Positions 11 to 16,620 of a stretch of 18,415 nucleotides of DNA are shown here, piece after piece. The stretch covers positions 1-18,415 of the forward strand of contig JABCSY010000082.1 in assembly GCA_018238625.1 (NCBI GenBank), written 5' to 3'. The stretch's first letter is position 1. Every line of letters begins with the position of its first letter. The notes beneath the pieces are model-generated. The model ran no database searches, was not told the origin of the DNA, and worked only from the letters and a program-made list of their open reading frames with translations. The position numbers and the translations under genes are program-made. The DNA comes from Promethearchaeota archaeon. GTDB lineage: Archaea > Asgardarchaeota > Lokiarchaeia > Sigyniarchaeales > SOKP01.

Positions 11-934
11 TCATAATTTTGAGAGAATAAGTTTTAATCTTGCATATATCTTGTTAATTGCTTGACTGGCTGCTGACTCCGGGGCATAATCTACGACAGG
101 TTCTGCGTAAGACATAGCTCTAGGAATAGATAAATCAAAATTAATTCTACCTAAAATATCAAAACCTGCTTTATCAATGTATTTATTTAATTGCTTTTGA
201 CTCGCGCTTTTTAAATCTGCTTTGTTAATCACAATCCCGAAAGGAATGTTAAACTGGTTAACCATCTCAATTGCTCGTTTCATATCGTGCAATCCTGAGG
301 GAGTTGGCTCTGTTATTGCAACTATATAGTCTAGACCTGAAACTGTAGCAATTACGGGACAACCTATTCCTGGAGGTCCATCAATTAAAATAAGATTTGC
401 GTCGTCGAACTCTTTGAGGTTTGTAGCGTGCCGCTTAACTTCTGAAACTAATAATCCCGAAGTGGTGCTTCCTAGCTTAGTTTTGCCGTAAATTAGAGGA
501 AATCCCGCATCTGTTTCATATTTTATTATTTCTCCGCTTTTAACTGAATTAATTTCAAATGCATCCTCAGGACATAAAACTTTACACGCTCCACATCCCT
601 CACACGCTAAATAGTCGATAACAGGAATGTTATTGTCCTCATCCCAATTTAACGCGTTAAATTCGCAAAAATGGTCGTCATAACATTGTTTGCAATTCAC
701 GCATTTTTCCTCTAAGAATGTGGCCTTTTTTGTAGTAAACGTGTCTTGAGTTAGTATGTCTTCCTTAGATTTCGGTGGTAGTATTAAGGCTAAATTAGGG
801 GCATCCACATCGCAATCTAATATAATAAGATTAATGTCCTGATCTTTATGCGCTATGCTTGCTAGAGAAGCTACGAGCGATGTTTTCCCAACACCTCCCT
901 TTCCAGAAATCACAGCAATCTTTTTTCTATTCAC
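11..934 (-). CDS. MinD-superfamily P-loop ATPase with inserted ferredoxin domain (COG1149), paralog B
   Basis: Deviant Walker A SGKGGVGKT, DCDVDAPN, inserted Cys motifs CVNCKQC..C and CEGCGACKVLCP, DGPPGIGCPV, TEPTPSGLHD. Its GTG start overlaps the TGA of the upstream paralog (931-934). Confidence 0.92.
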   Translation of the reverse strand: MNRKKIAVISGKGGVGKTSLVASLASIAHKDQDINLIILDCDVDAPNLALILPPKSKEDILTQDTFTTKKATFLEEKCVNCKQCYDDHFCEFNALNWDEDNNIPVIDYLACEGCGACKVLCPEDAFEINSVKSGEIIKYETDAGFPLIYGKTKLGSTTSGLLVSEVKRHATNLKEFDDANLILIDGPPGIGCPVIATVSGLDYIVAITEPTPSGLHDMKRAIEMVNQFNIPFGIVINKADLKSASQKQLNKYIDKAGFDILGRINFDLSIPRAMSYAEPVVDYAPESAASQAINKIYARLKLILSKL

Positions 935-1848
935 TTTGAAATTTCACCCCATTTTATTAGGTTCTCAAAAATTATTTCAAACGATTTGTAGCCAGCTCCA
1001 TCCCTATCAAATTTGCTTTTTTCTTCCATTAACGGAATACCTTGACAATAGGAGCTCACAATTTCTTCGTCTAAAGGAATGTCGCCTAAAATTTCTATAC
1101 CAATTTCTTCTAATTCTTTTAAAAATTTATCTTTGTAACCTAACAACGACGATCGATTCACAATAGCCTTGTGTTCTTTCTTCAATAAATCAATCAATTC
1201 TATAATTCTTAACAAATCAAGCTTTCCGAATCTCGTAGGTTCTGTAACTGGTATGACAAGATCAGCCCCACCAATTAATTCTTCTACGTCGCAATGGGCT
1301 CCAGGCGCAGTATCCAATATAACGATGTCGTATTTTTCTGGCTCTGTTTTTATAACATTTTCTAAATTTTCCATCAATTTATTTACAATTACAGCTGAGC
1401 GCGCTTCGGCTGGTTTTAATTCGCCTAGAAAAAGATCTATGTTAAATGCGGAGGCCGTATAAGTCCATCCAATAACTTTTAAATCAGGTTCAATTGCATT
1501 AGTCGGACAAATCTTATAACATAATTTGCAACCTGAGCAAACTGTCGATATTGGAATTGGATAGGAATCTTTGATGTATAAGAGTGCGTGTGTTTCACAA
1601 TTCTCTGCGCACAATCCACACTTAGTACATTTATCTTCTATTATTTTTGGTAGGAAATAAAGAACTTCCGTTTTATTCTTAAGCTTTGCGTTTAATAATA
1701 AATAAGTATTCGGGTTCTCAACATCTCCGTCGATAAGAAGTACTTTAAAACCCTTATTCTTAAATAATATTGCTAAATTCACGGCAACCAGCGTTTTTCC
1801 CGTCCCGCCCTTGCCACCTGTAACACAAATGATTTTTGGTTCGACCAT
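931..1848 (-). CDS. MinD-superfamily P-loop ATPase with inserted ferredoxin domain (COG1149), paralog A
   Basis: GGKGGTGKT, DGDVENPN, CTKCGLCAENC and CSGCKLCYKICP, DTAPGAHC, TEPTRFG. Tandem pair typical of COG1149. Confidence 0.92.
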   Translation of the reverse strand: MVEPKIICVTGGKGGTGKTLVAVNLAILFKNKGFKVLLIDGDVENPNTYLLLNAKLKNKTEVLYFLPKIIEDKCTKCGLCAENCETHALLYIKDSYPIPISTVCSGCKLCYKICPTNAIEPDLKVIGWTYTASAFNIDLFLGELKPAEARSAVIVNKLMENLENVIKTEPEKYDIVILDTAPGAHCDVEELIGGADLVIPVTEPTRFGKLDLLRIIELIDLLKKEHKAIVNRSSLLGYKDKFLKELEEIGIEILGDIPLDEEIVSSYCQGIPLMEEKSKFDRDGAGYKSFEIIFENLIKWGEISK

Positions 1849-1900: not shown

Positions 1901-2359
1901 TTAAAATTGTCTTCCTCGACCGCCACCGCCACCGCCCATTCCTCGACCACCACCCATGCCGCCACCTCGACCTCCGCCTCCACCCATGCCTGCGTGAGCT
2001 CCAACGTTTGAAGTCGCAAGAACTTGCAATTTACCACCTAAAAGCAAATCTATTAATTCTTTCACAGTTCCACCTTGTGATTGATAAATTTTAATATTTA
2101 AAGCGCTTAAAGAATTCGACGCGTTAGGACCTAAATTGCCTACAATGACCTCTGTGGCTCCGTTATTACCGATAATTTGAGCAGCTTGAATTCCTGCACC
2201 ACCCATCGCACCTGCCGCATCGTTTGCGACGGTTTTAACTCCTACTATTTCGTTATTCTCAATTGTAACAAATGTGAAGCTTGCACACCTTCCAAAACGA
2301 TTATTCATAACTTCTTTCAAGCCTAAATTTCCAAATGTAGGAATACCAACTATTACCAT
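1901..2359 (-). CDS. NifB/NifX (COG1433, FeMo-cofactor-binding fold) family protein with Gly/Arg-rich C-terminal tail
   Basis: RFGRC..F motif, GAGIQAAQ, GNLGPNA, GTVKE. AGGTGA RBS upstream on the minus strand. Confidence 0.9.
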   Translation of the reverse strand: MVIVGIPTFGNLGLKEVMNNRFGRCASFTFVTIENNEIVGVKTVANDAAGAMGGAGIQAAQIIGNNGATEVIVGNLGPNASNSLSALNIKIYQSQGGTVKELIDLLLGGKLQVLATSNVGAHAGMGGGGGRGGGMGGGRGMGGGGGGRGRQF

Positions 2360-2420
2360 TTTTTATAATTCACCTTTTAAAGTATGATTAAACTAATTCT
2401 TGATAGAATTTAAAGTTTTA

Positions 2421-2434
2421 TGAATGATTATTCT
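2421..2434. promoter_or_regulatory. Putative operator TGAATGATTATTCT (one mismatch to TGRAT-N4-ATYCA)
   Basis: About 60 bp upstream of the NifX-COG1149-COG1149 unit. Matches 9543-9556 at 12 of 14 positions. Confidence 0.6.
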
Positions 2435-2598
2435 ATTTAATTTCCTCTAAATAGATATAATTTATAAGCATTGTGTTTAAAAATAGAATTGATTTTAAGA
2501 TAATAATAACAAGAAGTTAAGAAACGGTTAAATTTACTTAAGATTACCTTATTTTAAGCTTCATTTTCTAAAAATATGATTTATAACATCATAGTTTT

Positions 2599-2991
2599 TT
2601 ATCTTTGTCCCATTTCAGCACCTTTTATGAGCTCTGCTGATTTGGTCATATTTAATTTCCCAGCTAGGTAAAGATTAATTAATTCTTTAATTGTAATTTC
2701 TTGATCAGGTCCTTGAAATGTTTTAATATCCAAGGAACTTAATACTTTGGAAGCGTTTGGCCCCAGTCTGCTAACAATTAACTTATCGCCGCCATTACTT
2801 TTAACTAATTTAGCTGATTGCGTACCAGCACCTCCTTGTTCGTCAGCCGCAAAATTTTTGATTACTTTAACTTGTGTAATTTCATTATTATCTACGGTTA
2901 TAAAAGTAAAGCTGTCACATCTACCAAATTTGAGGTGGAAAATTTCGTTTAATCCTCCTTCTCGATAACTCGGTACTGTAATTATTTCCAT
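2599..2991 (-). CDS. NifB/NifX family protein
   Basis: KFGRCDSFTF, GGAGTQSA, LGPNA. Clear paralog of 1901-2359. Confidence 0.9.
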   Translation of the reverse strand: MEIITVPSYREGGLNEIFHLKFGRCDSFTFITVDNNEITQVKVIKNFAADEQGGAGTQSAKLVKSNGGDKLIVSRLGPNASKVLSSLDIKTFQGPDQEITIKELINLYLAGKLNMTKSAELIKGAEMGQR

Positions 2992-3215
2992 TCTGTTATT
3001 ACCTTTTTTTAAAAACTTTTAATTAACTCGAATTATATTTTGATTCATTTCTATAAAAGTTTACTTTTAATAAGTAAAATAAGCTTAATTGTAGTTTCTA
3101 ACTATAAATGAAATTATTAAAAGTATAGATTAAATTATATATATTATTGTTATTAGTTCTTAAATAACTTAAATTATATTAAAGGTTTAGTCTTACCTTC
3201 AAGTGAGAAAATTCT

Positions 3216-3758
3216 ATGGTTTCTTTAAAAAAAATGATGTATAAAATTTGCATAGTTGGTGATGGAGCAGTTGGAAAAACTACAATTCTTCACCAGTATG
3301 TTGATGGAAAGTTCATGGAAGATACTCAACTGACCATTGGAACAAATTTCTTTATAAAAGATATCATTTTAAAAGAATTTGATATAAGTATTAAATTTCA
3401 GATTTGGGACCTTGGCGGACAAGACTATTTTGCATCAGTCCGTCGTAATTTTTATAATGGAGCTAGGGGAATTATTTACACTTTTGATTTGACGAGAAAA
3501 AGTACTTTTAACAATTTAATTGAGTGGAAAAGTGAAATTGATAAAGATTTAGAAGAGGGATTCTCTAGCGTTTTAATTGGAAACAAATTAGATTTAATTA
3601 ACGAAGAAGATCGAGTAATAAACCTTGAAGATGTTTTACTTATTAAAAAAGAATTGAGTGTTTCAGAATACTTCGAAACAAGTGCTAAAAATAATACTGG
3701 AATTGATAACGCTTTTAGGAGATTGGCGATAGATATTTATAAATCATTAGCACCCTAA
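3216..3758 (+). CDS. Rab-like small GTPase (Ras superfamily, eukaryotic signature protein)
   Basis: G1 GDGAVGKT, G2 TIG, G3 WDLGGQ, G4 NKLD, G5 ETSAK. RabF-like segments IGTNF, KFQIW, FYNGA, TFDLT. No C-terminal Cys. Confidence 0.93.
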   Translation: MVSLKKMMYKICIVGDGAVGKTTILHQYVDGKFMEDTQLTIGTNFFIKDIILKEFDISIKFQIWDLGGQDYFASVRRNFYNGARGIIYTFDLTRKSTFNNLIEWKSEIDKDLEEGFSSVLIGNKLDLINEEDRVINLEDVLLIKKELSVSEYFETSAKNNTGIDNAFRRLAIDIYKSLAP

Positions 3759-3879
3759 ATTAACAGGTTTCTGATATGTAACTTGTTTCTTCCTAATTAT
3801 AACAAAAACTTGTCTTAAGTACTGTACTATCTAAAATTGTCTTGTTTTATCTTAATTTTTAATTAAGAAATTTAAAAAA

Positions 3880-3893
3880 TGGATAATCATTCA
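3880..3893. promoter_or_regulatory. Putative operator TGGATAATCATTCA
   Basis: Identical to 9481-9494 and the reverse complement of 9543-9556 and 9754-9767. Lies in the intergenic region upstream of mrp. Confidence 0.65.
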
Positions 3894-4076
3894 CTAAATT
3901 GTTTTGAATTATAATAAAAACATGAATGAAACCTATAGAATTATAATCTAATGTTTTAAAGGATTTTCAAAATATTAGCGATAGATTAAAGGATATTATA
4001 ATGTATCTTTAAAATATAATAAAATAGTAAAGAAAAATAAATTTAAAAAGTCAAATAAAGTGGTTGATATTTAAAA

Positions 4077-4949
4077 ATGGGAGAAGATGAAACACCTGAT
4101 ATTGATTTAAAGAAGATGGTAAGCGACGGAAAACAAGAAGCGATGGACGAGAGAATGGTAAGCATTCGGAATAATATGGCTAAAATAAAACACAAAATCG
4201 TCGTGATCTCCGGGAAAGGAGGCGTCGGCAAAACTACTGTATCCGTAAATCTAGCAATGAGTTTGGCAAGCGTAGGATTACGTGTAGGCATTCTGGATGT
4301 AGATATTACAGGACCAAACGTGAATAAGATGTTAGGCATTAGTCCCGAAGTTAGACCTCGCGTAGACCCCGACGCAAAGAAGTTCTACCCGGTTGACGGC
4401 CCTTTGAACACTAAGGTTGTTAGTATGGCGTTTTTACTTCAAGATAGCGACACACCAGTGATCTGGAGGGGTCCTATGAAGATGGGAGCCGTTCGACAAT
4501 TCTTGGGTGATGCGCACTGGGGCGACCTTGATTACTTAATTTGTGATTTACCACCTGGTACTTCTGACGAGACTCTTGACATTTTACAGCTGATTCCTGA
4601 TGAAAATGTCGTAGTTGTATCCACCCCTCAAGAAGTTGCAATTATGGACGCTCGAAAGACGATATCAATGGCAAAAACAATGAAAAGACATGTACTTGGA
4701 ATAATTGAAAATATGTCGGGATTTAAATGTCCTCATTGTGACGAATACATCGATCTTTACCCTCCAGGTGGCGCAGAAAAGGCATCTAAGGATTTTAACG
4801 TAAAACTTCTAGGTAAAATTCCTTTCGAGGTCGAAGTAGGCCAACAAGGGGACCAAGGATTGCCATTCGTTTTAAAATATCCAGATAGAGAAAGCACTAA
4901 AGCATTTAAAGCAGTAGTAGCTAAAATAAGAGAAGAATTAGAAAAATAA
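4077..4949 (+). CDS. mrp: Mrp/ApbC/Nbp35-family Fe-S cluster carrier ATPase
   Basis: SGKGGVGKTT, DVDITGP, PVIWRGPMK, WGDLDYLICDLPPGTSD, TPQEVA..D, IENMSGFKCPHC (bridging CxxC). Confidence 0.95.
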   Translation: MGEDETPDIDLKKMVSDGKQEAMDERMVSIRNNMAKIKHKIVVISGKGGVGKTTVSVNLAMSLASVGLRVGILDVDITGPNVNKMLGISPEVRPRVDPDAKKFYPVDGPLNTKVVSMAFLLQDSDTPVIWRGPMKMGAVRQFLGDAHWGDLDYLICDLPPGTSDETLDILQLIPDENVVVVSTPQEVAIMDARKTISMAKTMKRHVLGIIENMSGFKCPHCDEYIDLYPPGGAEKASKDFNVKLLGKIPFEVEVGQQGDQGLPFVLKYPDRESTKAFKAVVAKIREELEK

Positions 4950-4972
4950 ATCTTTTTTATAAATTTTTTTTA
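4950..4972 (+). terminator. Oligo-T terminator-like tract after mrp
   Basis: TCTTTTTTATAAATTTTTTTT directly after the stop codon, between convergent genes. Confidence 0.4.
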
Positions 4973-4985
4973 ATTATTTATGAAA

Positions 4986-5360
4986 TTAAGGATTTGGGTG
5001 CCCACCACCGGCGCAGGCAGCTTCGTTAAGCGGTTGCAATTTTCCTTGTAAAAGTAGCTGAATATTATCGTTTAGAGTCCCTCTAACTCCTTTATATAAT
5101 TTAATTCCATATTGAGTAAATCCTGCGAACGGTCGTCCGCCTATTCCTCCAACAATCATATCCGTAACCCGCCTATCCCTCATGTCATTAACGGGTTCCA
5201 TGCATCCCGTATGTCCGTTATTTTGCAAAGAAAATGCTTTTTTCATGTTGTTGTCTTGGTCAATCTCTATTCCTACAAAATAACTGCAATGTCCGAAGTG
5301 TTCGGAGATTGGATCTACTAATTCTGGTCCATCGGATGGAATTCCAATAACTTTATTCAT
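4986..5360 (-). CDS. NifB/NifX family protein
   Basis: ISEHFGHCSYF, GHTGCM.PV, GGIGGRP, C-terminal ACAGGGH. Confidence 0.9.
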   Translation of the reverse strand: MNKVIGIPSDGPELVDPISEHFGHCSYFVGIEIDQDNNMKKAFSLQNNGHTGCMEPVNDMRDRRVTDMIVGGIGGRPFAGFTQYGIKLYKGVRGTLNDNIQLLLQGKLQPLNEAACAGGGHPNP

Positions 5361-5398
5361 TTTATATCACTCGTGTTAAATATTTTTATTAATTCAAC

Positions 5399-5412
5399 TG
5401 AATATTTATTCA
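5399..5412. promoter_or_regulatory. Putative operator TGAATATTTATTCA
   Basis: Perfect TGAAT-N4-ATTCA arms about 40 bp upstream of the NifX gene at 4986-5360. A TATA-like TTTATAA lies on the minus strand at about 5429-5435. Confidence 0.55.
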
Positions 5413-5721
5413 TCATTAAATTTAATGGTTATAAAAAATCAGTTCTTCTTAAAAAGTCGAATGTAATTGCGACTAATCCGACAAAATCTAAAATTTCCTA
5501 TAAGTCCTATGAAATTTGGGATAAAATATCCACGTGATATAAAGTCTGATAAATACCTAAAGAATTTAAACAAATAGTATTATATTTTTATTATAAATAT
5601 GGAGATACAAAAAATCTTCATAATTACAGATTAAGGGTTAATCAACATTAGCTTAGATATTAAATCAGAAATCTCGAAATTTTTAAAGGGTATTATTATT
5701 TGTAAGGAATCTGGAATTTAT

Positions 5722-6147
5722 TTGTTAGATCTCATTTTAGATTCTGACATTAACCCTCTGTTGCTCTCTTCATTTGTTGGTGCCCTTCAGCTCTTTGGGT
5801 CCGAAAATATGGGAAAAATTGAAGAAATTACGATAAAAGGTTTATCGATTGACATGATTATCGTAAACAAATATAATCTTGTTATGATAACCATAATGGA
5901 TAAAGCTTTCGTTAAATACGACATTAGAGGAGAGTCAGAAAAAGCGTTAGATATGTTCTACGCTATATACAGAGACGAGATCGAAGATTGCTCTGAAGTA
6001 TACCAGTTCAATTCTTTCAAAAAAATTCTCTATGACCAAATTGAAGAATATTTTATAAAAATAAAAAATGAAGATCCAAAAGCCGAAATTGGAGATTTTG
6101 GATTTTTTACTGGAGCGATAGCGAAGCTGAGAAATGGTTCGCACTAA
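5722..6147 (+). CDS. Longin/roadblock-like (profilin-like fold) Asgard protein; true start probably upstream (frame open from 5635)
   Basis: In-frame upstream LKGIIICKESGIYLL, then INPLLLSSFVGALQLFGSE..GKIEEITIKG and a C-terminal F..F...I helix. This pattern resembles Asgard longin-like proteins. Confidence 0.6.
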   Translation: MLDLILDSDINPLLLSSFVGALQLFGSENMGKIEEITIKGLSIDMIIVNKYNLVMITIMDKAFVKYDIRGESEKALDMFYAIYRDEIEDCSEVYQFNSFKKILYDQIEEYFIKIKNEDPKAEIGDFGFFTGAIAKLRNGSH

Positions 6148-6149
6148 AC

Positions 6150-7034
6150 TTAAAAGTTATTTGTCTTCATTTTGAAAATTAAATCGCCTAATTTTACTTT
6201 AAATATTCTTTCCATCAATGAGCATTTAGCTTTTAATAAATAGAACATTTTTCTATCTATTATTTCCATTCCATATAAGCTTTCAAAATTTCCCTGTCCT
6301 TTTGATAAAATCACGCCATTTTTCAAAAAGAAGTGTTTCTTAAATTCGGCTGTAGATGTTGGTATATGAATTCCAGGTGTATCGCTTCCTTCGATCACAT
6401 GAACTAAATCAGTTAAACCAACTGATTTGGCATCCTCAATCGTTACATCATTAATAGTGGGAGCGGCTCTTACCGAATAAACAATTTCTAAATCTGGATA
6501 CAATTTTTTAATGGTTACAATTAATAATTTATCAAATACGATTTCTCCGCAATTATCTCCCAAAATTAACAAATGGTTTGTTTTCTGAAGCGCTTGCTTG
6601 AACTTATCGTAATCGTTTATTACTAAATCTTCTGGTGAAAAGCTCTTAATATCGTTTATAAAATCTATTTGGTGTTGAGCCGCTAGATCTATCGTATTTC
6701 CAAGAGCAGCAACAATAATCGCTTCGAACAAAGGATCTTCTGCCTTATCGACTATCTTTTTGGCTTCGTCGTAAAATTGCATAGCCAATTGATTGTACTT
6801 TTTTTTAATAGCCGCGTAAGGGTCTTTTACGCCTAAAGCTTCTGCGATAAGCTTGTATAATGCTTTTCCAAATATAGGAGAAGCGTTTTGCTCCATGTCG
6901 AGATTCATAAGATATTCCATTAATTTTTTCTGAGTATCCAGAATTATTTCTCGGGAGATATCAGGCTTTAACAATTGAAACGCTCTCAGTACTTGATTAA
7001 AGAGGCACCCAACACATTCAGGTTCTAATTGCAT
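6150..7034 (-). CDS. DUF89/ARMT1-like metal-dependent damage-control phosphatase (COG1578)
   Basis: N-terminal ECVGC, DPY...K, GN.ID, DNCGE.VFD, INDVT..DA, KGQGNFESL, LLKAKC. Confidence 0.92.
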   Translation of the reverse strand: MQLEPECVGCLFNQVLRAFQLLKPDISREIILDTQKKLMEYLMNLDMEQNASPIFGKALYKLIAEALGVKDPYAAIKKKYNQLAMQFYDEAKKIVDKAEDPLFEAIIVAALGNTIDLAAQHQIDFINDIKSFSPEDLVINDYDKFKQALQKTNHLLILGDNCGEIVFDKLLIVTIKKLYPDLEIVYSVRAAPTINDVTIEDAKSVGLTDLVHVIEGSDTPGIHIPTSTAEFKKHFFLKNGVILSKGQGNFESLYGMEIIDRKMFYLLKAKCSLMERIFKVKLGDLIFKMKTNNF

Positions 7035-7186
7035 TTTAATAATTCCTTTATATTGTGATAGTTATTGTGATTAGAAAAAATTAAGAAATAAATTAAATCC
7101 TTTTAAAATAGTTCAGAAAAAAAGGAATTTTATATAGAAGAAGAAATTTATAGTATATTATCATTTAACTAAATTTAAAAAAAAAT

Positions 7187-8503
7187 GTGAAAAAAATGTC
7201 AGAAAGTCAAAAAAAGGACAAATTAGATGTTAGACATACGTTTTTTATCGGTTTAGCTTTTTTTACAACAGGGATATCATGGTCAATGTATAACACTCAA
7301 GTCAATTTTACACTTTTTCAATATTTAGGTCTATATGCGCTCGTAGGTGCGTGGATGGCAATGGATAATATTATCGGGGTTATTATTCAGCCTATTTTGG
7401 GCTCGGTTTCGGATAATACACGTAGTAAATTCGGTAGAAGGATGCCCTATCTTATAGTTGGAATACCATTAGCCGCGATCTTTTTTGTTTTAATATCGAC
7501 AGTAAATTATCCGCAAGATCCTATGTGGTTATTACTTCTATGGATGTTCTTCTTTAATATTAGTATGGCCTCGTATAGATCACAGGCAGTGGCACTCATG
7601 CCAGATTTTGTAACACCGGCCAATAGAAGTAACGGGAATGCTATAATTAATTTTATGGGGGGTATAGGGGCAGTAATGGCTTATATTTTTAACCTCGTTT
7701 TAGTTCCTATAAGCTTATTTCTAGCATTTTTAGTTGTAGCTATTATAATGGTCATATCATTGGTTATACTGCTATTTACGGTAAAAGAAACGGATTCTTA
7801 TAGTTACAAATTGATTTTAGAAATGGAGGAAAAGGAAGGAGAGAAAATAAAAGACAAAAAAGAAAAAATGAGCCTTCTAGAAAGCTTTAAAGATGTAATA
7901 GGCGAAGAAGATAAAAGTACTTTATTTATGCTTCTCGCTATTTTCTCTTGGTTCGTCGGATATCAAGCACTCGAAGCATTATTTACAGTTTACGCAGGCG
8001 ATGTTTTAGGTTTAGAACGAGGTCCAGCAGGAGGAATGTTGCTTTATGTGGCGCTCTCTTTTCTTTTATTTGCATTTCCAGCAGGTATCTTGGGCACTAA
8101 AATCGGTAGAAAATTAACTATTAAAATCGGACTCGTCTTATGGATAATTTCTTTGATTGTTATGTTTACTTTTCAAAATACGACTGTGATCTCAATATGT
8201 TTCGTTGTTGCTGGAGCTGGTTGGGCTTTTATAAACATCAACTCAATAGTCATTGTGTGGGAAATGGCCCCTACAGCAAAGAAAATTGGCACTTACACAG
8301 GGCTTTATTATTTCTTTAGTTTCATGGCTGCAATCTTAGGTCCTTTTTTGGTAGGTCTAATTGTCGATGCTCTTGGTAATCATACACTATTTTTGGTAAG
8401 TTCTTTTTTCTATATTATCGCTTTAATTTTTGTATTTCTTGTTAAAAGAGGCGAAAGCGAACTTACTGAAGAAGCAAGAAAAAAAGCAATCCAAGAATTA
8501 TAA
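7187..8503 (+). CDS. MFS transporter (GPH/maltose-sucrose-like); start possibly ATG 7196
   Basis: About 12 hydrophobic segments, QPILGSVSDNTRSKFGRRMPY, ALMPD, second motif-A GILGTKIGRK, GTYTGLYY. Confidence 0.9.
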   Translation: MKKMSESQKKDKLDVRHTFFIGLAFFTTGISWSMYNTQVNFTLFQYLGLYALVGAWMAMDNIIGVIIQPILGSVSDNTRSKFGRRMPYLIVGIPLAAIFFVLISTVNYPQDPMWLLLLWMFFFNISMASYRSQAVALMPDFVTPANRSNGNAIINFMGGIGAVMAYIFNLVLVPISLFLAFLVVAIIMVISLVILLFTVKETDSYSYKLILEMEEKEGEKIKDKKEKMSLLESFKDVIGEEDKSTLFMLLAIFSWFVGYQALEALFTVYAGDVLGLERGPAGGMLLYVALSFLLFAFPAGILGTKIGRKLTIKIGLVLWIISLIVMFTFQNTTVISICFVVAGAGWAFININSIVIVWEMAPTAKKIGTYTGLYYFFSFMAAILGPFLVGLIVDALGNHTLFLVSSFFYIIALIFVFLVKRGESELTEEARKKAIQEL

Positions 8504-8513
8504 ATATTTCAAC

Positions 8514-8531
8514 TTTTTTTTTTTTATTTTA
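8514..8531 (+). terminator. Oligo-T terminator-like tract after the MFS gene
   Basis: Run of 12 T followed by ATTTTT, about 10 bp after the stop. Confidence 0.5.
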
Positions 8532-8564
8532 TTCAATTATAAAAAGAAGGTAGATTCATATTTC

Positions 8565-8975
8565 TTAAAGATTTTCTCGTACTTCTTCGAGAAGAAACTT
8601 TTCTAAAGCATCTGAAATTTCGGGCGTTACAAAATGTTCTATTTTACAACAAAGCTCGTCGAGCTCAAGACTATCTTTTACGCCTAAAATATTGATAAAA
8701 AAACGCTTCCATAAATTATATTTGTTAATAGTTCCAATTGCTATATTTTTTCCTTTCGTACTTAACCTTACTGATTTTCTCGGACGCCAATTTATTAAAT
8801 CGTTAGTTTGCAATTTAAACAACATGTTTGACACAGAAGCGGGCTTAACTTTTAAAAAGTTAGAAATCTCTGAATTTGAAACCCAACCACCTTTGTTTTT
8901 CTTCGATACAGTGTAAATTGCTTTGAGATAATCTTCGTAGGTATCATTAATTAGCGACATAGCACTTATCCACAA
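8565..8975 (-). CDS. DtxR/MntR-family metal-dependent transcriptional regulator (likely start ATG 8960)
   Basis: EDYLKAIY, wHTH SNSEISNFLKVKPASVSNMLFKL, LSTKG, FF..ILG, CKIEH metal-site motif. No FeoA domain. Confidence 0.92.
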   Translation of the reverse strand: MWISAMSLINDTYEDYLKAIYTVSKKNKGGWVSNSEISNFLKVKPASVSNMLFKLQTNDLINWRPRKSVRLSTKGKNIAIGTINKYNLWKRFFINILGVKDSLELDELCCKIEHFVTPEISDALEKFLLEEVRENL

Positions 8976-9024
8976 TCAATTTTTAACTTTTAAAGTTTTA
9001 ATTAATATAAAAATGAAAAAAAAA

Positions 9025-9414
9025 TTATTCTTTTTTCTCTAATTCTTCAATTCTTTTAGCGATATCCTCAATCGCGGTACCTATACCTTTAAGGTCAGAT
9101 TCTAAGTAATTTCTTTCTTGCTTTAACATGGCAACTTGATCTCCAGCGCTTAAAGGGGCCATTGGCGCATAAACGGGCGCAACAGGCATATAAGGAGGAT
9201 TAATAGGACCCCCATACCCATATCCTGCTCCGTAACCTCTACCGTATCCTCTACCGCGTCCAGCACCCCGACCCATCCCTCGGCCATAACCTCCGCCGTA
9301 ACCTAAGCCTACGCCTCTTGTATAGCCAGGACTGGCATATCCCGCGCAATATCCTAAACCTCTTCCTGTCATTGAACCATAACCTCTTGGTCCAGTTCTA
9401 TCTCCACCGGGCAT
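9025..9414 (-). CDS. DUF5320-family protein (Gly/Arg-rich, C-terminal coiled coil)
   Basis: MPGGDRTGP.G.G.MTGRGLGYCAG start, GRG repeats, C-terminal LKQE...LE..L..I...I..RIEELE. Confidence 0.88.
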   Translation of the reverse strand: MPGGDRTGPRGYGSMTGRGLGYCAGYASPGYTRGVGLGYGGGYGRGMGRGAGRGRGYGRGYGAGYGYGGPINPPYMPVAPVYAPMAPLSAGDQVAMLKQERNYLESDLKGIGTAIEDIAKRIEELEKKE

Positions 9415-9477
9415 TTTTTAACATCATCTCATTTTTATTGGTTTTTAATATTTTTTAAATTCAGATTTAGAATGCTA

Positions 9478-9559
9478 TTTTGGATAATCATTCACTATCT
9501 GTTCATTATTATTTATATATCAATTAGAGTATATAAACATTATGAATGATTATCCAAAA
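9478..9559. repeat. 17-bp perfect inverted repeat (TTTTGGATAATCATTCA ... TGAATGATTATCCAAAA): two operator copies flanking a TATA-like box
   Basis: Arms at 9478-9494 and 9543-9559. The spacer contains TATATAAAC, which reads TTTATATA on the minus strand toward DUF5320. Confidence 0.75.
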
Positions 9560-9749
9560 GACTATAGAACACCCACTCTCTTTAATAAATAAGAGTCTAA
9601 AAATCTTTAATTTAAAAATTATTCAATAATCTTTAATCTCCTAAGACAATATTTTTTTATGGTTAAAAAACTTTATAGATCTCATCTGGTGTTTCGAACA
9701 CTAAATTACTATTTTTACTACATTTTGATACTAAATAGAAAATTTAAGT

Positions 9750-9770
9750 ATTATGAATGATTATCCAAAA
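9750..9770. promoter_or_regulatory. Putative operator ATTATGAATGATTATCCAAAA
   Basis: Exact 21-bp direct repeat of 9539-9559, upstream of the NifX-iscU-radical SAM-tsaA unit. Confidence 0.7.
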
Positions 9771-9821: not shown

Positions 9822-10238
9822 GTGGTTTTAAAGTTGAAAATAGTTATATGTACAGAATCCGGAAATGTTGCCCAGCATTTTGGTCGAGCGCCTTTATTTA
9901 CATTTATTACGATTGAAGATAATAAAGTAATTGATAAAGAAGCCCTTCCCAATCCAGGGCATACAGTTGGAAGCATCCCTCAATTCATAAACGAGCAAGG
10001 TGCTACTTGCATGATCACGGGTGGAATAGGTCATAGAGCAGTTGGTTTTTTTAACGATTACGGAATAGAAGTTATTAGGGGCGTTATTGGCAGCGTTGAC
10101 GACACTATTGGAAAAATCTTAGATGGAACTTTAGAAGGTGGCGAAAACATTTGTTCTCCTGGTCTTGGTAAAGGTTATGGAGTAGAAAAAATCCATACAG
10201 AAGCAGACGATAATTCTGATCGCCACCATGACCATTAG
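9822..10238 (+). CDS. NifB/NifX family protein with His-rich tail (probable start TTG 9834)
   Basis: VAQHFGRAP.F, PNPGH.VG.IP, ITGGIG.RA, GTLEGGENIC, C-terminal HHDH. AGGTGG RBS precedes 9834. Confidence 0.9.
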   Translation: MVLKLKIVICTESGNVAQHFGRAPLFTFITIEDNKVIDKEALPNPGHTVGSIPQFINEQGATCMITGGIGHRAVGFFNDYGIEVIRGVIGSVDDTIGKILDGTLEGGENICSPGLGKGYGVEKIHTEADDNSDRHHDH

Positions 10239-10269
10239 TATTACACAATAAATAGGAATTCAATCCAAG

Positions 10270-10713
10270 ATGCCTGATGAAAATTTTGATGTGTTTTTCG
10301 CTAAGCTTCAAAAGGAGATAATGGAACAAGAAATAAAAGAATATAACGAATATATCGTTAATTTATTTCACAATCCAAAAAATTGGGGAAAACCTCCAGA
10401 TGAAGAGATCACTATTTCCCAAAAGTTTAAAGGGCCATGCGGGGATTCGATGTTATTCTTTTTAAAAATCAATGGTAATATAATTGAGAAAGCAAATTTC
10501 ATAACAGACGGTTGTGGGGCATCTTTAGCAACAGCGTGTCAAACTACGCTTCTAATAGAAGGTAAATCTTTAAGTTTTGCTGAAGCCTTAAAACCGGAAG
10601 ATCTTGACTTGGCTTTAAAGGGGTTGCCGGAAGATCATAAACATTGTGCTGAATTAGCGATAAGAACGTTAAGAAGAGCGATAAATAAATATAAAGCGTC
10701 AATGGTTAAATAA
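10270..10713 (+). CDS. iscU: IscU/NifU-N type Fe-S scaffold protein
   Basis: NPKNWG, GPCGD, DGCG, LP..HKHCA; all three conserved Cys present. Confidence 0.9.
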   Translation: MPDENFDVFFAKLQKEIMEQEIKEYNEYIVNLFHNPKNWGKPPDEEITISQKFKGPCGDSMLFFLKINGNIIEKANFITDGCGASLATACQTTLLIEGKSLSFAEALKPEDLDLALKGLPEDHKHCAELAIRTLRRAINKYKASMVK

Positions 10714-10752
10714 AAATAAATTTTTAAAAACTTGTATTATTTTTAAAAGAAT

Positions 10753-11685
10753 ATGAAATACGTGTATGGTCCTGTTCCTAGTAGACGATTAGGAAATTCG
10801 TTAGGAATCGACCCAATTCCCTCAAAAACCTGCAATTATCAGTGTATATATTGTCAATTAGGAAAAACAACTAATTTTACGAACGAGAGGAAAGATTTTT
10901 ACCCCCCAGAAGAAATTATTAAAGAGATGGAAGAGTCTATTAACCTTAATAAAAATAAGTTTGATTACATAACATTTGTAGGTAGTGGGGAGCCTACACT
11001 ATGCAAAAGTTTAGGCGAATTGATTTTAAAAGCAAAAAAATTATCTAAAAAACCGATATGTATAATCACTAATGGTAGTTTATTCTATCGCGAAGATGTT
11101 AGGGAAGAACTTATGTTTTCTGATGTTGTTTTGCCTACTTTAGATGCGGGAGATGAAAAATTATTCATTAAAATAAATCGTCCTCATCCCTCCATAAAAT
11201 TTGAAAAAATGATCCAAGGATACATTGATTTTAGGAAAGAATTCAGCGGAAAATTCTGGATAGAAATAATGTTAATGAAGGGTATTAACGATTCCAAAGA
11301 AGAACTATTAAAAATAAAAAATAAATTAGATTTAATCAAACCCGATAGAATTGACGTTAACGTTCCAATAAGACCTCCTGCTGAAAGTTGGGTGCAAATT
11401 CCCGATAAAAACGTTATATCGACTTTAAACGATGTTTTTGGAGAATATAATAATATTAATTTTCCTGAGCGAGGAAAATTTAGCGTTTTTAGTTCTAATT
11501 TTGAAATGGAATTAAAGAAATTACTTGAAAGACATCCTATGAGACAAGAACAAATTTTTGAAACATTTAGTTCAAAAAAGTTTAATGAGCAAGACATATT
11601 ACTTCAATTGAATACTCTAGCATCGCAGAATAAGATTAAAAAAGTAATTTACAATAACCAGCCCTTTTGGAAATTAATAAATTAA
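10753..11685 (+). CDS. Radical SAM protein, COG0731 (TYW1-related subgroup)
   Basis: YVYGPVPSRRLGNSLGID, CNYQCIYCQLG (CX3CX2C), GSGEPTL, TNGSL, LDAG, RPPAE, RHPM. Confidence 0.92.
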   Translation: MKYVYGPVPSRRLGNSLGIDPIPSKTCNYQCIYCQLGKTTNFTNERKDFYPPEEIIKEMEESINLNKNKFDYITFVGSGEPTLCKSLGELILKAKKLSKKPICIITNGSLFYREDVREELMFSDVVLPTLDAGDEKLFIKINRPHPSIKFEKMIQGYIDFRKEFSGKFWIEIMLMKGINDSKEELLKIKNKLDLIKPDRIDVNVPIRPPAESWVQIPDKNVISTLNDVFGEYNNINFPERGKFSVFSSNFEMELKKLLERHPMRQEQIFETFSSKKFNEQDILLQLNTLASQNKIKKVIYNNQPFWKLIN

Positions 11686-11706
11686 CAAATAACCTAATTA
11701 GTAGCT

Positions 11707-12198
11707 ATGCCAGTTTGTACGAAATGTAAAAAGGAAAAAGGATTAGACCAACTTGATAAATTTGACGACAAATTCATGTGTTATTCCTGTTTATATCAGA
11801 ATAATAAGCCGTTTAAGATCTTTCCAATCGGTTTTGTTGAGAATCAATTAGAACGAGGGGAAGGATTTGGGTTGAAAGGGAGTAGAAGTAATGTCTCTAA
11901 AATCCGTCTTTTTGAATCACAAAGACCATTTCTTTACAAATTGGAAGAAGACGAATGGATTACTGTTGTATATTATTTTCATAAACAGCGTAATATTCGA
12001 TCGACTTTTTCTCGAGGAATTGACGGGAAAAAAGTGGGTGTTTTCGCTTCTCGGACGCCTAATCGATTATCTCGCATTGGAATTAGTAATGTTAAACTAG
12101 TTAAAATTGAAGATACCACTTTATTCGTCGAAAATCTCGATGCGATTAACGGAACGCCAATTTTAGACGTTAAATTAGGTTCTAAAACGAGATGGTAG
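11707..12198 (+). CDS. tsaA: TsaA/TrmO-like SAM-binding protein with N-terminal CxxC..CxxC zinc finger
   Basis: PIGFV, GVFASRTPNR..IG, LDAINGTPILDVK are TsaA/TrmO signatures. N-terminal CTKC and CYSC. Confidence 0.8.
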   Translation: MPVCTKCKKEKGLDQLDKFDDKFMCYSCLYQNNKPFKIFPIGFVENQLERGEGFGLKGSRSNVSKIRLFESQRPFLYKLEEDEWITVVYYFHKQRNIRSTFSRGIDGKKVGVFASRTPNRLSRIGISNVKLVKIEDTTLFVENLDAINGTPILDVKLGSKTRW

Positions 12199-12265: not shown

Positions 12266-12405
12266 TTAACTCAAAAATTCTTTTAATTTTAACAATACTT
12301 CTGAGGTTTTTCCTTTTAAAAAATATCAACAATAGAATTAGTATATTTTGAATCTTCAATGTTAATTTCTATAAATTTTGCTCTATTTTTCTTGGCAATA
12401 AATGG
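12266..12405 (-). pseudogene. 3' remnant of a sirtuin paralog (frameshifted)
   Basis: Translates PFIAKKNRAKFIEINIEDSKYTNSIVD-(1-nt deletion)-FLKGKTSEVLLKLKEFLS*. This aligns with PYLAREKGARIIEVNIEPTKYTQSIVDIFLKGKATEVFMKLKKIL* of 15611-15748. Confidence 0.85.
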
Positions 12406-12526
12406 CGGAAAGAATTGTGTGAGAAATAGAAGATTTGAAAGTGAAGGCTATATATCTCCCGATTATGGCCTTCCAGATGGGTCTGAAGATAGTAAGTTAA
12501 AAGAATATTTTTCTAAAATAGATTAA
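12401..12526 (+). pseudogene. 3' remnant of a paralog of the small ORF at 16389-16610
   Basis: Translates NGGKNCVRNRRFESEGYISPDYGLPDGSEDSKLKEYFSKID*, versus NEGKNCIRKKRFEEEGYISPDYVLPDGSEDSKLK* in the intact gene. The N-terminal half is missing. Confidence 0.87.
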
Positions 12527-16610: not shown

Positions 16611-16620
16611 TTTTCTAAGA

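What the first reader, a model, noticed from the sequence alone, without database searches (positions are those of the whole stretch)
2421..9770. Candidate undescribed regulon: palindromic TGRAT-N4-ATYCA operator upstream of five metal-cofactor transcription units
Seen in sequence: six copies, at 2421-2434, 3880-3893, 5399-5412, 9481-9494, 9543-9556 and 9754-9767. Four are identical 14-mers and two share 21 bp exactly. All are intergenic, upstream of NifX-COG1149x2, mrp, the third NifX, DUF5320 and NifX-iscU-rSAM-tsaA. By eye I found none upstream of the Rab, longin, MFS or DUF89 genes, the NifX at 2599-2991, or any gene beyond 12.2 kb. Inference: a dimeric transcription factor co-regulates scattered, differently oriented genes, so they form one functional system. 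The local DtxR protein is one candidate. A DUF134-type HTH protein, which often accompanies such clusters but is absent from this window, is another.
Basis: partly seen in the sequence, partly recalled or inferred. Interest (0 to 1): 0.75.

Follow-up and report, generated by a model that had tools for sequence, protein, structure and literature searches.

The report
Conserved Asgard operator for NifX-like genes
A short palindromic DNA signal in front of several iron-sulfur and metal-cluster carrier genes is kept in the same places across many Asgard archaea, so it is very likely the docking site of one regulator that switches these scattered genes together.

Summary
The window carries five exact TGRAT-N4-ATYCA sites and one near-site (2421-2434, last base T); shuffles give 0.26. 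All six lie between genes.

The motif is conserved. In 62 related Asgard loci the pattern occurs 161 times, 145 of them between genes, against 1.6 expected. The consensus is the 20-bp palindrome TTATGAATAATTATTCATAA.

Sites sit upstream of 103 of 118 NifX-like, 27 of 27 DUF5320, 39 of 44 Mrp and 5 of 5 small zinc-ribbon units. They sit upstream of 0 of 37 MFS, 0 of 30 ferredoxin-like and 0 of 19 DUF89 units.

About half the sites abut a TATA-like box. DUF5320 promoters carry two sites about 61 bp apart.

The gene set matches the Desulfovibrio ORP system, so this is a real regulon with a new operator.

The regulator is unresolved. I favour a DUF134 protein encoded outside the window. The local DtxR-like protein fits better a classical TTAG-N6-CTAA box found upstream of feoA in sister loci.

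Bacterial DUF134 genes carry an analogous palindrome, TGRCATATGYCA.

The parts
2418..2437 (.). Operator 1 (core 2421-2434, TGAATGATTATTCT). Weakest copy. It lies 62 bp upstream of the NifX-like/COG1149x2 operon on the minus strand.
   Evidence: 13.8 bits. A site sits at the head of the orthologous operon in 46 of 59 testable loci. The AGAAT half-site recurs in the close clade (15 of 122 half-sites).
2408..2414 (-). TATA-like TTTAAAT, starting 7 nt after operator 1 in the direction of the NifX gene.
   Evidence: Read. The position fits the family-wide peak of TATA-like hexamers at +16 to +23. Promoter function is inferred.
1901..2359 (-). NifX-like gene (Nitro_FeMo-Co domain) with a Gly/Arg-rich C-terminal tail. 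First gene of unit 1.
11..1848 (-). Two COG1149-type MinD/ParA ATPases with 4Fe-4S ferredoxin inserts (931-1848 and 11-934). They resemble Orp3/Orp4 and lie downstream in unit 1.
   Evidence: Orp3/Orp4 description from PMC6345978 passages.
3877..3896 (.). Operator 2 (core 3880-3893). It lies 183 bp upstream of mrp and 121 bp after the Ras-like gene. It is the ancestral Mrp/NifX divergent-region site.
   Evidence: 18.0 bits. The '<Mrp * >NifX' arrangement is common in relatives.
4077..4949 (+). Mrp/NBP35-type Fe-S carrier ATPase. It matches the P-loop part of MrpORP. Probable regulon member, less sure than the others.
   Evidence: NF041136, 329 bits, below the 450 cut-off. 39 of 44 Mrp units have a site within 250 bp.
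5396..5415 (.). Operator 3 (core 5399-5412, TGAATATTTATTCA), 38 bp upstream of the NifX-like gene 4986-5360.
   Evidence: 16.7 bits. Orthologous sites lie 33-38 bp upstream of this NifX in L002, L003, L007-L009, L011, L015 and L016.
4986..5360 (-). NifX-like gene (third copy).
9478..9497 (.). Operator 4 (core 9481-9494). Promoter-proximal site of the DUF5320/DtxR-like operon, 66 bp upstream of DUF5320.
   Evidence: 20.6 bits. 27 of 27 DUF5320 units have a site.
9530..9537 (.). TATA-like TATATAAA between operators 4 and 5. Read leftward it follows operator 5 by 5 nt and would place the DUF5320 start of transcription just before operator 4.
   Evidence: Read. Geometry matches. Inferred, with no transcript data.
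9540..9559 (.). Operator 5 (core 9543-9556). Distal site of the DUF5320 pair, 62 bp from operator 4. In relatives this position is also the promoter site of the NifX-IscU operon.
   Evidence: (23.3 bits). Pair spacing of 58-65 bp in 27 of 44 neighbouring pairs.
9751..9770 (.). Operator 6 (core 9754-9767), 54 bp upstream of the NifX-IscU-radical SAM-TrmO operon. It is a duplicate of operator 5.
   Evidence: D5; 23.3 bits.
9025..9414 (-). DUF5320 protein (Gly/Arg/Tyr-rich N-terminus, coiled-coil C-terminus). First gene of the most tightly marked unit.
8565..8975 (-). DtxR/MntR-family regulator, 49 bp downstream of DUF5320. A regulated member of the regulon. It is the rival candidate for the binding factor, but predicted here to bind a different box.
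   Evidence: '>D5320 >DtxR' in 22 sources: the window and 21 related loci.
9822..12198 (+). NifX-like (9822-10238), IscU/NifU_N (10270-10713), radical SAM (10753-11685) and TrmO/TsaA-like (11707-12198) operon.
   Evidence: The same order occurs in L007, L008 and L011.

Best explanation
The six sites are operators of a conserved Asgard regulon. Its consensus is the 20-bp palindrome TTATGAATAATTATTCATAA, with the core TGAAT-N4-ATTCA.

A dimeric helix-turn-helix factor binds them and co-regulates:
- the NifX-like ('Di-Nase') metal-cluster carriers;
- the COG1149 ferredoxin-ATPases that follow them;
- DUF5320 together with the DtxR-like gene behind it;
- a NifX-IscU-radical SAM unit;
- probably Mrp.

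This is the archaeal counterpart of the Desulfovibrio ORP system, run by a different regulator.

At about half of the promoters the operator ends 2-9 bp before a TATA-like box, where TFB would bind. At DUF5320 and at a small zinc-ribbon gene in relatives, a second operator lies about 61 bp further on, just past the predicted start of transcription. I infer that the factor acts mainly as a repressor that blocks assembly of the initiation complex, with the paired sites bound cooperatively on one face of the DNA.

The factor is most likely a DUF134-type protein (a sigma-region-4-like HTH plus a four-Cys ribbon) encoded outside this window. The signal may be Fe-S or metal-cluster status.

Shown: the motif, its conservation, its gene specificity and its geometry. 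Inferred: the binding factor, the direction of regulation and the signal.

My odds: real operator about 0.9. Binder: DUF134 about 0.45, DtxR-like about 0.2, another factor about 0.3.
For: Window: 5 exact sites against 0.26 expected. The six reader sites are the six best matrix hits.

Relatives: 62 Asgard-type loci with 58-99% identity of the query protein.
- 161 pattern hits, 145 between genes and 16 in my ORF calls; intergenic sequence is 14% of bases.
- 145 observed in 127,059 bp of intergenic sequence against a mean of 1.64 and a maximum of 6 in 100 shuffles.
- 61 of 63 sources hold at least one site.

Specificity, counted as units with a site within 250 bp upstream:
- NifX 103 of 118, DUF5320 27 of 27, Mrp 39 of 44, zinc-ribbon c27 5 of 5.
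- MFS 0 of 37, PF04060 ferredoxin-like 0 of 30, DUF89 0 of 19, MTTB 0 of 9, the 5722-type gene 1 of 22.

Geometry:
- A TATA-like hexamer starts at +16 to +23 in 64 of 138 sites, against 8-37 in the other 8-bp windows.
- 27 of 44 neighbouring site pairs are 58-65 bp apart, with the mode at 61.

For DUF134:
- It lies beside NifX/COG1149 genes in 16 loci. In all 16 it is divergent from, or in an operon behind, a NifX with a site.
- In 6 of 8 bacterial DUF134 loci an analogous palindrome, TGRCATATGYCA, lies no more than 170 bp upstream of DUF134 or NifX. These are the only 8 exact matches in 1.13 Mb held. It has the same TGR...YCA ends and, in most copies, TTAT/ATAA flanks.
- The DUF134 model's HTH superposes on sigma region 4 and on the DeoR DNA-binding domain at 0.6-0.8 A over 41-50 columns.

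Against the local DtxR-like protein as binder:
- Its closest solved relative, DR2539, has a near-identical recognition stretch and binds ATTTTAGTCGCGCCTAAAAT.
- That TTAG-N6-CTAA box lies upstream of 7 of 13 feoA genes next to the DUF5320-DtxR operon. Only 13 such boxes occur in all the intergenic sequence.
Against: No binding or expression data exist for any of this.

No DUF134 gene lies in the window or in any of the 16 close-clade loci (L001-L016, about 20 kb each). By contrast, the DtxR-like gene sits in the operon carrying the strongest double operator in 22 sources: the window and 21 related loci. That is the classic look of an autoregulated repressor.

The bacterial DUF134 palindrome has 6 bp, not 8, between TGR and YCA. 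The recognition helices also differ: SQPTFSR in Asgard against SR(A/T)T(V/I)Q in bacteria. The parallel is therefore an analogy, not a match.

The Foldseek hits are local and none reaches E 0.001.

The TATA-like box is absent at about half of the sites. An operator just upstream of TATA can also mark an activator.

The weight matrix was built from the same loci it scores. My ORF calls and start codons are crude, and some distances are clearly too short. The loci are related species, not independent samples.
Confidence: 0.5

Rival explanations
1. The local DtxR/MntR-like protein (8565-8975) is the binder. With bound Fe(II) or Mn(II) it represses its own DUF5320-dtxR operon and the NifX-like genes through the TGAAT box. 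A different DtxR paralogue elsewhere in the genome serves the TTAG box at feoA.
For: The gene rides behind DUF5320 under a double operator in 22 sources: the window and 21 related loci. It is the only regulator gene near the cluster in the close clade. The family binds 5-4-5 palindromes of the same length (TroR and SirR motifs in PMC10783522; DR2539). Archaea are reported to carry several DtxR paralogues (PMC10783522 passage). The protein keeps Cys/Glu/His at the positions aligned with the metal ligands E99/E102/H103 of MntR (alignment; the residue numbering is recalled).
Against: Its recognition stretch (KPASVSNML) is close to that of DR2539 (APASVTGML), which binds TTAG-N6-CTAA. That box, not TGAAT, lies 38-71 bp upstream of the adjacent feoA genes. 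The conserved G of the TGAAT box lies two positions further from the dyad than in the TroR, SirR and DR2539 boxes (my comparison of the sequences). Five DUF5320 units keep their operators without a DtxR gene behind them (L012, L024, L050, L055, L057).
Confidence: 0.2
2. A regulator seen in none of the loci binds the site. Examples would be a Fur-, ArsR-, TrmB- or Lrp-type protein encoded elsewhere.
For: The four identical window sites contain GATAATCATT, which resembles the Fur-box core (consensus recalled, not from a call). Regulators need not be linked to their targets. Neither local candidate is shown to bind.
Against: The family consensus TGAATAATTATTCA does not fit the 7-1-7 Fur arrangement (recalled). 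No further conserved regulator family appeared among the 38 cluster representatives I put through Pfam; clusters with fewer than 3 members were not scanned. Fur is reported to be rare in archaea (PMC10783522 passage).
Confidence: 0.25
3. The motif is not a regulator site. It could be a special promoter element (an extended BRE for an alternative TFB), an RNA hairpin, the start of a short leader peptide, or a relic of local duplication.
For: About half the sites abut a TATA-like box, where a BRE would lie. In the window the motif begins ATG/GTG AAT GAT TAT CC. Sites 9543 and 9754 are products of a local duplication.
Against: The proximal members of site pairs have no TATA-like box after them. 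A perfect 20-bp dyad is not expected of a BRE. In the consensus the reading frame closes after five codons and the peptide is not conserved. The stem would be only 5 A/U-rich pairs, and Rfam finds nothing. Duplication cannot explain conservation at orthologous promoters in loci only 58-72% identical.
Confidence: 0.05

Closest known systems
Desulfovibrio vulgaris orp operons under OrpR (DVU2106)
   Same: The same kind of gene set is co-regulated through a palindrome placed before differently oriented units. Compared: two ferredoxin-motif ATPases (Orp3/4), a Di-Nase/NifX-like protein (Orp8) and an Mrp/NBP35 carrier (Orp9). The authors suggest the system came from Archaea (PMC6345978 and PMC8359166 passages).
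   Different: OrpR is a sigma-54 enhancer-binding activator that recognises GGGCGYRTTTTGCGCCC and needs IHF. Here the site is an AT-rich 20-bp dyad next to an archaeal TATA-like box. No OrpR homologue appeared in the Pfam scans. Mrp and the NifX-like domain are separate genes. DUF5320, IscU and a radical SAM enzyme are included.
DtxR/IdeR/MntR-family metal boxes (haloarchaeal TroR TTTAGGC-N3-CCTAAA, SirR TTTwGAnnnnTCwAAA, Deinococcus DR2539 ATTTTAGTCGCGCCTAAAAT)
   Same: A 5-4-5 dyad of about 14-20 bp, tandem sites at some promoters, and a family member encoded in the regulon.
   Different: The half-site is TGAAT, not TTAGG or TTWGA, and its conserved G is shifted outward. A classical TTAG-N6-CTAA box exists separately, upstream of feoA in sister loci.
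Bacterial DUF134-linked palindrome TGRCATATGYCA
   Same: It lies upstream of DUF134, NifX, COG1149 and MrpORP genes. It has TGR...YCA ends with the same R/Y wobble, and most copies have TTAT/ATAA flanks giving a 20-bp dyad.
   Different: There are 6 rather than 8 bases between TGR and YCA. It overlaps a bacterial -35/-10 promoter. The bacterial proteins have a different recognition helix, and three of them carry a fused NifX-like domain.
Fe-S-status repressors of Fe-S assembly operons (IscR, SufR; recalled, no call)
   Same: What it may work like: a cluster- or metal-sensing repressor set before scaffold and carrier genes, including its own neighbourhood.
   Different: No sequence relationship was tested or expected. 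The sensing by DUF134's four cysteines is a guess.

Membership tests
DtxR/IdeR/MntR-type operator | Half-sites of the TTAGG / TTWGA type in a TTAG-N6-CTAA frame | tested here: not met
   The consensus is TGAAT-N4-ATTCA. The window holds no TTAG-N6-CTAA at all.
DtxR/IdeR/MntR-type operator | Bound by a DtxR-family dimer in the presence of metal | not testable with these tools
DtxR/IdeR/MntR-type operator | Placed before metal uptake or storage genes | tested here: not met
   A TGAAT site lies within 250 bp of 2 of 13 feoA units. The classical box lies upstream of 7 of 13.
Fur box | 19-bp GATAATGATAATCATTATC or 7-1-7 TGATAAT-N-ATTATCA dyad (recalled) | tested here: not met
   Window sites share GATAATCATT, but the consensus of the 138 unique intergenic sites used for the logo is a 14-bp core with even spacing.
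Fur box | A Fur-family protein in the genome | not testable with these tools
   None appeared among the proteins scanned. The rest of the genome is not in hand.
ORP (orange protein) system | Two paralogous ATPases with two 4Fe-4S ferredoxin motifs (Orp3/Orp4) | tested here: met
   ORFs 11-934 and 931-1848 carry CbiA/ParA plus Fer4 domains. Description from PMC6345978 passages.
ORP (orange protein) system | A single-domain Di-Nase/NifX-like protein (Orp8) and an Mrp/NBP35 carrier (Orp9) | tested here: met
   Four Nitro_FeMo-Co genes are present. Mrp matches MrpORP positions 1-252 and the NifX-like genes match positions 264-365. The two domains are not fused here.
ORP (orange protein) system | Control by sigma-54 with OrpR at GGGCGYRTTTTGCGCCC | tested here: not met
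   No such regulator appeared in the scans and a different motif is present. That archaea lack sigma-54 is established knowledge (recalled).
ORP (orange protein) system | Physical complex of the proteins and a Mo-Cu cluster on Orp8 | not testable with these tools
   Biochemistry only.
DUF134-controlled NifX/ORP regulon (proposed here) | DUF134 gene beside the regulated NifX/COG1149 genes | tested here: inconclusive
   Met in 16 of 62 Asgard loci and in bacterial L077, L079 and L083. Not met in the window or in L001-L016.
DUF134-controlled NifX/ORP regulon (proposed here) | DUF134 is a DNA-binding HTH protein | tested here: inconclusive
   Pfam DUF134 at 7e-21. The model has mean pLDDT 72.8, and its HTH superposes on sigma region 4 and the DeoR DNA-binding domain, but no Foldseek E-value reaches 0.001.
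DUF134-controlled NifX/ORP regulon (proposed here) | DUF134 binds the dyad as a dimer | not testable with these tools
   It needs EMSA or DAP-seq.

The most novel reading that the evidence does not exclude
DUF134 is a so far uncharacterised regulator family shared by Bacteria and Asgard archaea. It governs the anaerobe-specific ORP/NifX-like metal-cluster carrier genes through TGR-N6/8-YCA dyads. In Asgard archaea it stands above an iron-sensing DtxR, which in turn controls feoAB. One cluster-status signal would then set both Fe-S carrier supply, including the NBP35 homologue, and iron uptake.
Probability: 0.35. Interest if true: 0.72.

Novelty: new member of a known kind. Interest (0 to 1): 0.62.

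Why it matters
Almost nothing is known about gene regulation in Asgard archaea, the closest archaeal relatives of eukaryotes. I found no described regulon of this kind.

- This operator is unusually clean. It can be tested at once by EMSA or DAP-seq with two named proteins, and in the cultured Lokiarchaeia by transcript mapping.
- It ties proteins of unknown role (DUF5320, a 63-residue zinc-ribbon protein, several NifX-like paralogues, the COG1149 ATPases) into one system with IscU and the Mrp/NBP35 carrier. That supports a role for the ORP-like set in Fe-S or metal-cluster handling.
- It offers a first function for DUF134, in archaea and in bacteria.
- It separates two metal-related circuits in these genomes: the TGAAT box and the classical DtxR box at feoA.

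Tried and rejected
- Homodimer prediction for Asgard DUF134 (two copies, 10-row alignment) gave no verdict. It counts neither way.
- Rfam over the whole window gave 0 families.
- Short leader peptide starting in the motif (MNDYP...): small ORFs exist in the window, but the frame closes after five codons in the consensus and is not conserved. Rejected.
- RNA hairpin: only 5 A/U-rich pairs, and the letters themselves are conserved. Rejected without a fold.
- Fur-box likeness: seen only in the window's own variants, not in the consensus.
- The 14 non-Asgard loci from the scan (L063-L076) hold neither DUF134 nor DtxR relatives and only scattered pattern hits. They gave no cross-phylum test.
- The bacterial palindrome has no counterpart in Asgard loci. 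TTGAC-N4-GTCAA gave one unrelated hit in L018, and TGRCATATGYCA gave none.
- Co-variation between the DtxR helix and operator variants: the close clade has both a PASVS helix and more degenerate half-sites (TGAAT 83 of 122, against 248 of 284 in the others). DUF134 is unseen in that clade, so this does not discriminate.
- Fievet et al. 2011 (PMC3133258) is not held. I did not see its comparative analysis of orp neighbourhoods, and it may bear on DUF134.
- The sigma-70 promoter scan was not used because it does not apply to archaea.
So neither a genome-wide motif scan of the source organism nor a search for its DUF134 gene could be run.

Full report
**1. The observation.**
The degenerate pattern TGRAT-N4-ATYCA matches five times in the window: 3880, 5399, 9481, 9543 and 9754. 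In 200 dinucleotide-preserving shuffles the mean was 0.26 and none reached five.

The sixth site, 2421-2434, reads TGAATGATTATTCT and differs from the pattern at its last base. At one mismatch the window is not enriched as a whole: 8 found against 5.17 expected.

Four sites are the same 14-mer, two in each orientation. Positions 9539-9559 and 9750-9770 are identical over 21 bp, inside a 49-nt direct repeat. All sites lie between ORFs.

- two COG1149-type ATPases with ferredoxin inserts;
- four NifX-like genes;
- a Ras-family GTPase;
- Mrp/NBP35;
- DUF89 and MFS;
- a DtxR/MntR-family regulator;
- DUF5320;
- IscU, a radical SAM enzyme and a TrmO-like protein.

NCBIfam's best model for Mrp and for the NifX-like genes is MrpORP. 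That pointed me to the Desulfovibrio orange-protein (ORP) system.

**2. Related loci.**
It returned 76 loci.

- L001-L062 match at 58-99% identity. Most titles read Promethearchaeota or Promethearchaeia. A few read Hod-, Hermod- or Odinarchaeota, or 'uncultured archaeon'. One (L016) is titled as a Nanopelagicaceae bacterium but has the gene order of the close clade.
- L063-L076 are weak hits in other phyla. I used them only as background.

I called ORFs with a simple longest-ORF rule and clustered the 1244 proteins by BLASTP. I named clusters from the window's proteins and from Pfam scans of 38 representatives. Start codons are therefore approximate.

**3. Conservation.**
- The pattern occurs 161 times in the window plus L001-L062. 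Of these, 145 are intergenic and 16 fall in ORF calls; intergenic sequence is 14% of the bases.
- Shuffling the 751 intergenic segments (127,059 bp; L001 left out as a near-duplicate of the window) gave a mean of 1.64 and a maximum of 6 in 100 shuffles, against 145 observed.
- For the logo I used 138 intergenic sites, all distinct in sequence. Each lay within 200 bp of a correctly oriented gene and had 60-bp flanks. Sites in ORFs, further away, or at contig ends were dropped. The aligned sites give the 20-bp dyad TTATGAATAATTATTCATAA.
- A matrix from these sites finds 203 hits at 12 bits or more, 193 of them intergenic.
- 61 of 63 sources have at least one hit; L006 and L042 have none.

The matrix was trained on the loci it scores. 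The informative results are therefore the intergenic bias and the gene specificity, not the hit count.

**4. Which genes.**
I counted genes that head a transcription unit and have a site within 250 bp upstream.

| Gene family | Units with a site | Units counted |
|---|---|---|
| NifX-like | 103 | 118 |
| DUF5320 | 27 | 27 |
| Mrp | 39 | 44 |
| 63-residue zinc-ribbon protein (cluster c27) | 5 | 5 |
| MFS | 0 | 37 |
| PF04060 ferredoxin-like | 0 | 30 |
| DUF89 | 0 | 19 |
| MTTB | 0 | 9 |
| cluster u16389 | 0 | 10 |
| the 5722-type gene | 1 | 22 |
| Ras-like | 4 | 18 |
| FeoA | 2 | 13 |

The head of the NifX-COG1149 operon, the orthologue of window site 1, has a site in 46 of 59 testable loci. 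The misses are mostly cases where the operon starts further upstream (OsmC-Mrp-IscU-NifX-COG1149) or where my operon walk failed.

Mrp sites lie 64-265 bp from mrp and are usually the promoter site of a divergent NifX gene. I therefore rate Mrp as probable only.

In the window a Ras-like gene lies between that site and the NifX gene 2599-2991. This explains why that NifX has no site of its own.

**5. Geometry.**
I oriented each site towards its nearest gene.
- A TATA-like hexamer starts 16-23 nt after the first base of the core in 64 of 138 sites. The other 8-bp windows hold 8-37. Typical sequences read TCA-TAAnnn-TTTAAAT. The operator thus ends where a BRE would lie.
- Neighbouring sites are 58-65 bp apart in 27 of 44 pairs, with the mode at 61. 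These pairs precede DUF5320 and c27. The TATA-like box follows the distal site. The proximal site then falls about 10 nt past the start predicted 26 nt after the box.
- In the window the same picture holds. TTTAAAT (2408-2414) follows site 1. TATATAAA (9530-9537) lies between sites 5 and 4.

I infer repression by occlusion of TFB/TBP, plus a block just after the start. The 61-bp phasing suggests cooperative binding. Activation from the upstream site cannot be excluded, and no transcript data were available.

**6. A window-specific duplication.**
In L002, L007, L008 and L011 the DUF5320-NifX intergenic region is 184-219 bp, including 9 bases of each flanking gene. One site serves each side. In the window the same region is 425 bp, because the NifX-side promoter with its operator is present twice, at 9511-9559 and 9722-9770. 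The 'third' site is therefore recent.

**7. Who binds? The two candidates.**
- The DtxR-like gene follows DUF5320 in 22 sources: the window and 21 related loci.
- A DUF134 gene of 139 residues (HTH plus C-x2-C...C-x2-C) follows the COG1149 pair in 16 loci. It is either divergent from a NifX with a site or in an operon behind one.

**Findings that favour DUF134 over the DtxR-like protein.**
First, the intergenic regions next to DUF5320-DtxR hold a second, different dyad, TTAG-N6-CTAA, 38-71 bp upstream of feoA. An exact box lies upstream of 7 of 13 feoA genes, and only 13 exact boxes occur in all the intergenic sequence.

Second, the closest solved relative of the window's DtxR-like protein is Deinococcus DR2539 (8pvt, E 1e-9). 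Its recognition stretch APASVTGML resembles KPASVSNML here. In the passages of bioRxiv 10.1101/2024.02.12.579695 that I read, DR2539 is crystallised on ATTTTAGTCGCGCCTAAAAT. That is the same box. Haloarchaeal TroR (TTTAGGC-N3-CCTAAA) is of this type too (PMC10783522 passages). The DtxR-like protein therefore has a family-typical target next door.

Third, DUF134 is the partner of NifX/COG1149/MrpORP genes in bacteria as well.
- Peptoclostridium has a DUF134-NifX-ATPase-ATPase-MrpORP operon.
- Selenomonas has Mrp-DUF134.
- Salinivibrio has DUF134 near a NifX gene.

In 6 of 8 such loci the dyad TGRCATATGYCA lies no more than 170 bp upstream of DUF134 or NifX. These are the only 8 exact matches in the 1,133,682 bp I hold. 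It shares TGR...YCA ends, and in most copies TTAT/ATAA flanks, with the Asgard dyad.

The AlphaFold model of Asgard DUF134 has mean pLDDT 72.8. Its HTH superposes on sigma-factor region 4 and on the DeoR DNA-binding domain (rmsd 0.6-0.8 A over 41-50 columns). No Foldseek match reaches E 0.001.

**Findings against DUF134.**
- It is absent from the window and from all 16 close-clade loci.
- The bacterial spacing is 6 bp, not 8.
- The recognition helices differ.

**Odds for the binder:** DUF134 about 0.45, DtxR-like about 0.2, another factor about 0.3, not a factor site about 0.05.

**8. Comparison with what is known.**
The ORP complex of D. vulgaris consists of:
- Orp3 and Orp4, with ferredoxin motifs;
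- Orp5;
- Orp8, a Di-Nase protein with a Mo-Cu cluster;
- Orp9, which is MrpORP.

Its two divergent operons are activated by the sigma-54 regulator OrpR at GGGCGYRTTTTGCGCCC, with IHF. The authors suggest an archaeal origin (passages of PMC6345978, PMC8359166 and PMC3897727).

The window has homologues of Orp3/4, Orp8 and the two halves of Orp9. The regulator and the operator are entirely different.

The same paper notes that Pyrococcus IssA, of the same family, binds thioferrate through a cationic tail. The window's first NifX-like protein ends in a Gly/Arg-rich tail, and DUF5320 starts with one. I did not test that likeness.

**9. Novelty.**
Searches for DUF134/DUF5320, the three COG numbers, Asgard with DtxR, and Lokiarchaeal promoters found no description of this motif or regulon. 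These covered PubMed Central CC-licensed papers and bioRxiv only. Fievet et al. 2011 was not available.

The kind of thing, a dyad operator and its regulon, is well known. This instance, its breadth across Asgard lineages, and the link to DUF134 appear to be new.

**10. Verdict.**
- Observation: confirmed.
- Interpretation: supported.
- Regulator: unresolved, with DUF134 favoured over the local DtxR-like protein.
- Interest: 0.62.

Noticed in passing
L077:4897-4947, L078:4913-4924, L079:4035-4046 and 4939-4984, L081:4836-4847, L082:2942-2953, L083:3923-4103: Bacterial DUF134 genes (Clostridia, Negativicutes, Salinivibrio) and neighbouring NifX/Mrp genes are preceded by the palindrome TGRCATATGYCA, usually as TTATTGACATATGYCA overlapping a -35-like TTGACA. 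All 8 exact matches in 1.13 Mb of held loci are at these places. It is a candidate DUF134 operator that I have not seen described.
   Followed up: partly
L028:5917-5954, L035:2909-2922 and 3496-3533, L046:5203-5216, L050:6632-6645 and 7193-7206, L053:5857-5870: A classical DtxR-type box, TTAG-N6-CTAA, lies 38-71 bp upstream of feoA genes that sit divergently next to the DUF5320-DtxR operon. It matches the operator crystallised with Deinococcus DR2539. The window itself has no feoAB and no such box.
   Followed up: yes
window 9511-9559 and 9722-9770: A 49-nt direct repeat (80% identical, last 21 nt identical) marks a local duplication of about 211 bp of the NifX-side promoter with its operator. 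The intergenic region here is 425 bp, against 184-219 bp in L002, L007, L008 and L011. The 160 bp between the copies has no ORF of note and no Rfam match.
   Followed up: partly
window 3216-3758: A Ras/Rab-family GTPase gene lies inside the otherwise conserved Mrp/NifX divergent pair. It separates the NifX gene 2599-2991 from the operator at 3880. L001, L004 and L013 have the same arrangement. Other relatives have Ras-like genes at other points of the cluster.
   Followed up: no
window 1901-2359 and 9025-9414: The first NifX-like protein ends in a Gly/Arg/Met-rich tail (GGGGRGGGMGGGRGMGGGGGGRGRQF). DUF5320 begins with about 70 residues rich in Gly, Arg and Tyr. The coding DNA shows up as a shared repeat family (D1). 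The tails recall the cationic tail of Pyrococcus IssA mentioned in PMC6345978.
   Followed up: no
L026:14657-14848, L028:14871-15062, L034:6123-6314, L041:6393-6584, L053:14940-15131: A conserved 63-residue protein with CWGC...C-x2-C (no Pfam family) is preceded by two operators about 61 bp apart in all five loci, like DUF5320. It is an unnamed member of the regulon and is not present in the window.
   Followed up: partly
L025, L026, L028, L031, L053 (upstream of the called DUF134 ORFs): In several loci the conserved DUF134 N-terminus (GRRRHRRW) is in frame behind ATA rather than ATG, 5-7 nt after a GGTGAT Shine-Dalgarno-like box. That suggests an unusual start codon. My ORF calls there are truncated to 100-114 residues.
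   Followed up: no
window 12278-12509 versus 15620-15748 and 16512-16614: A gene-poor stretch after the TrmO-like gene is 73-80% identical to the 3' end of the Sir2 gene and to the 3' end of the small ORF 16389-16610 (D2, D3, D6). It looks like a decayed partial duplicate.
   Followed up: no
L016: The record is titled as a Nanopelagicaceae bacterium, yet its COG1149 protein is 81% identical to the window's and its gene order and operators are those of the close Asgard clade. The contig may be binned to the wrong genome.
   Followed up: no
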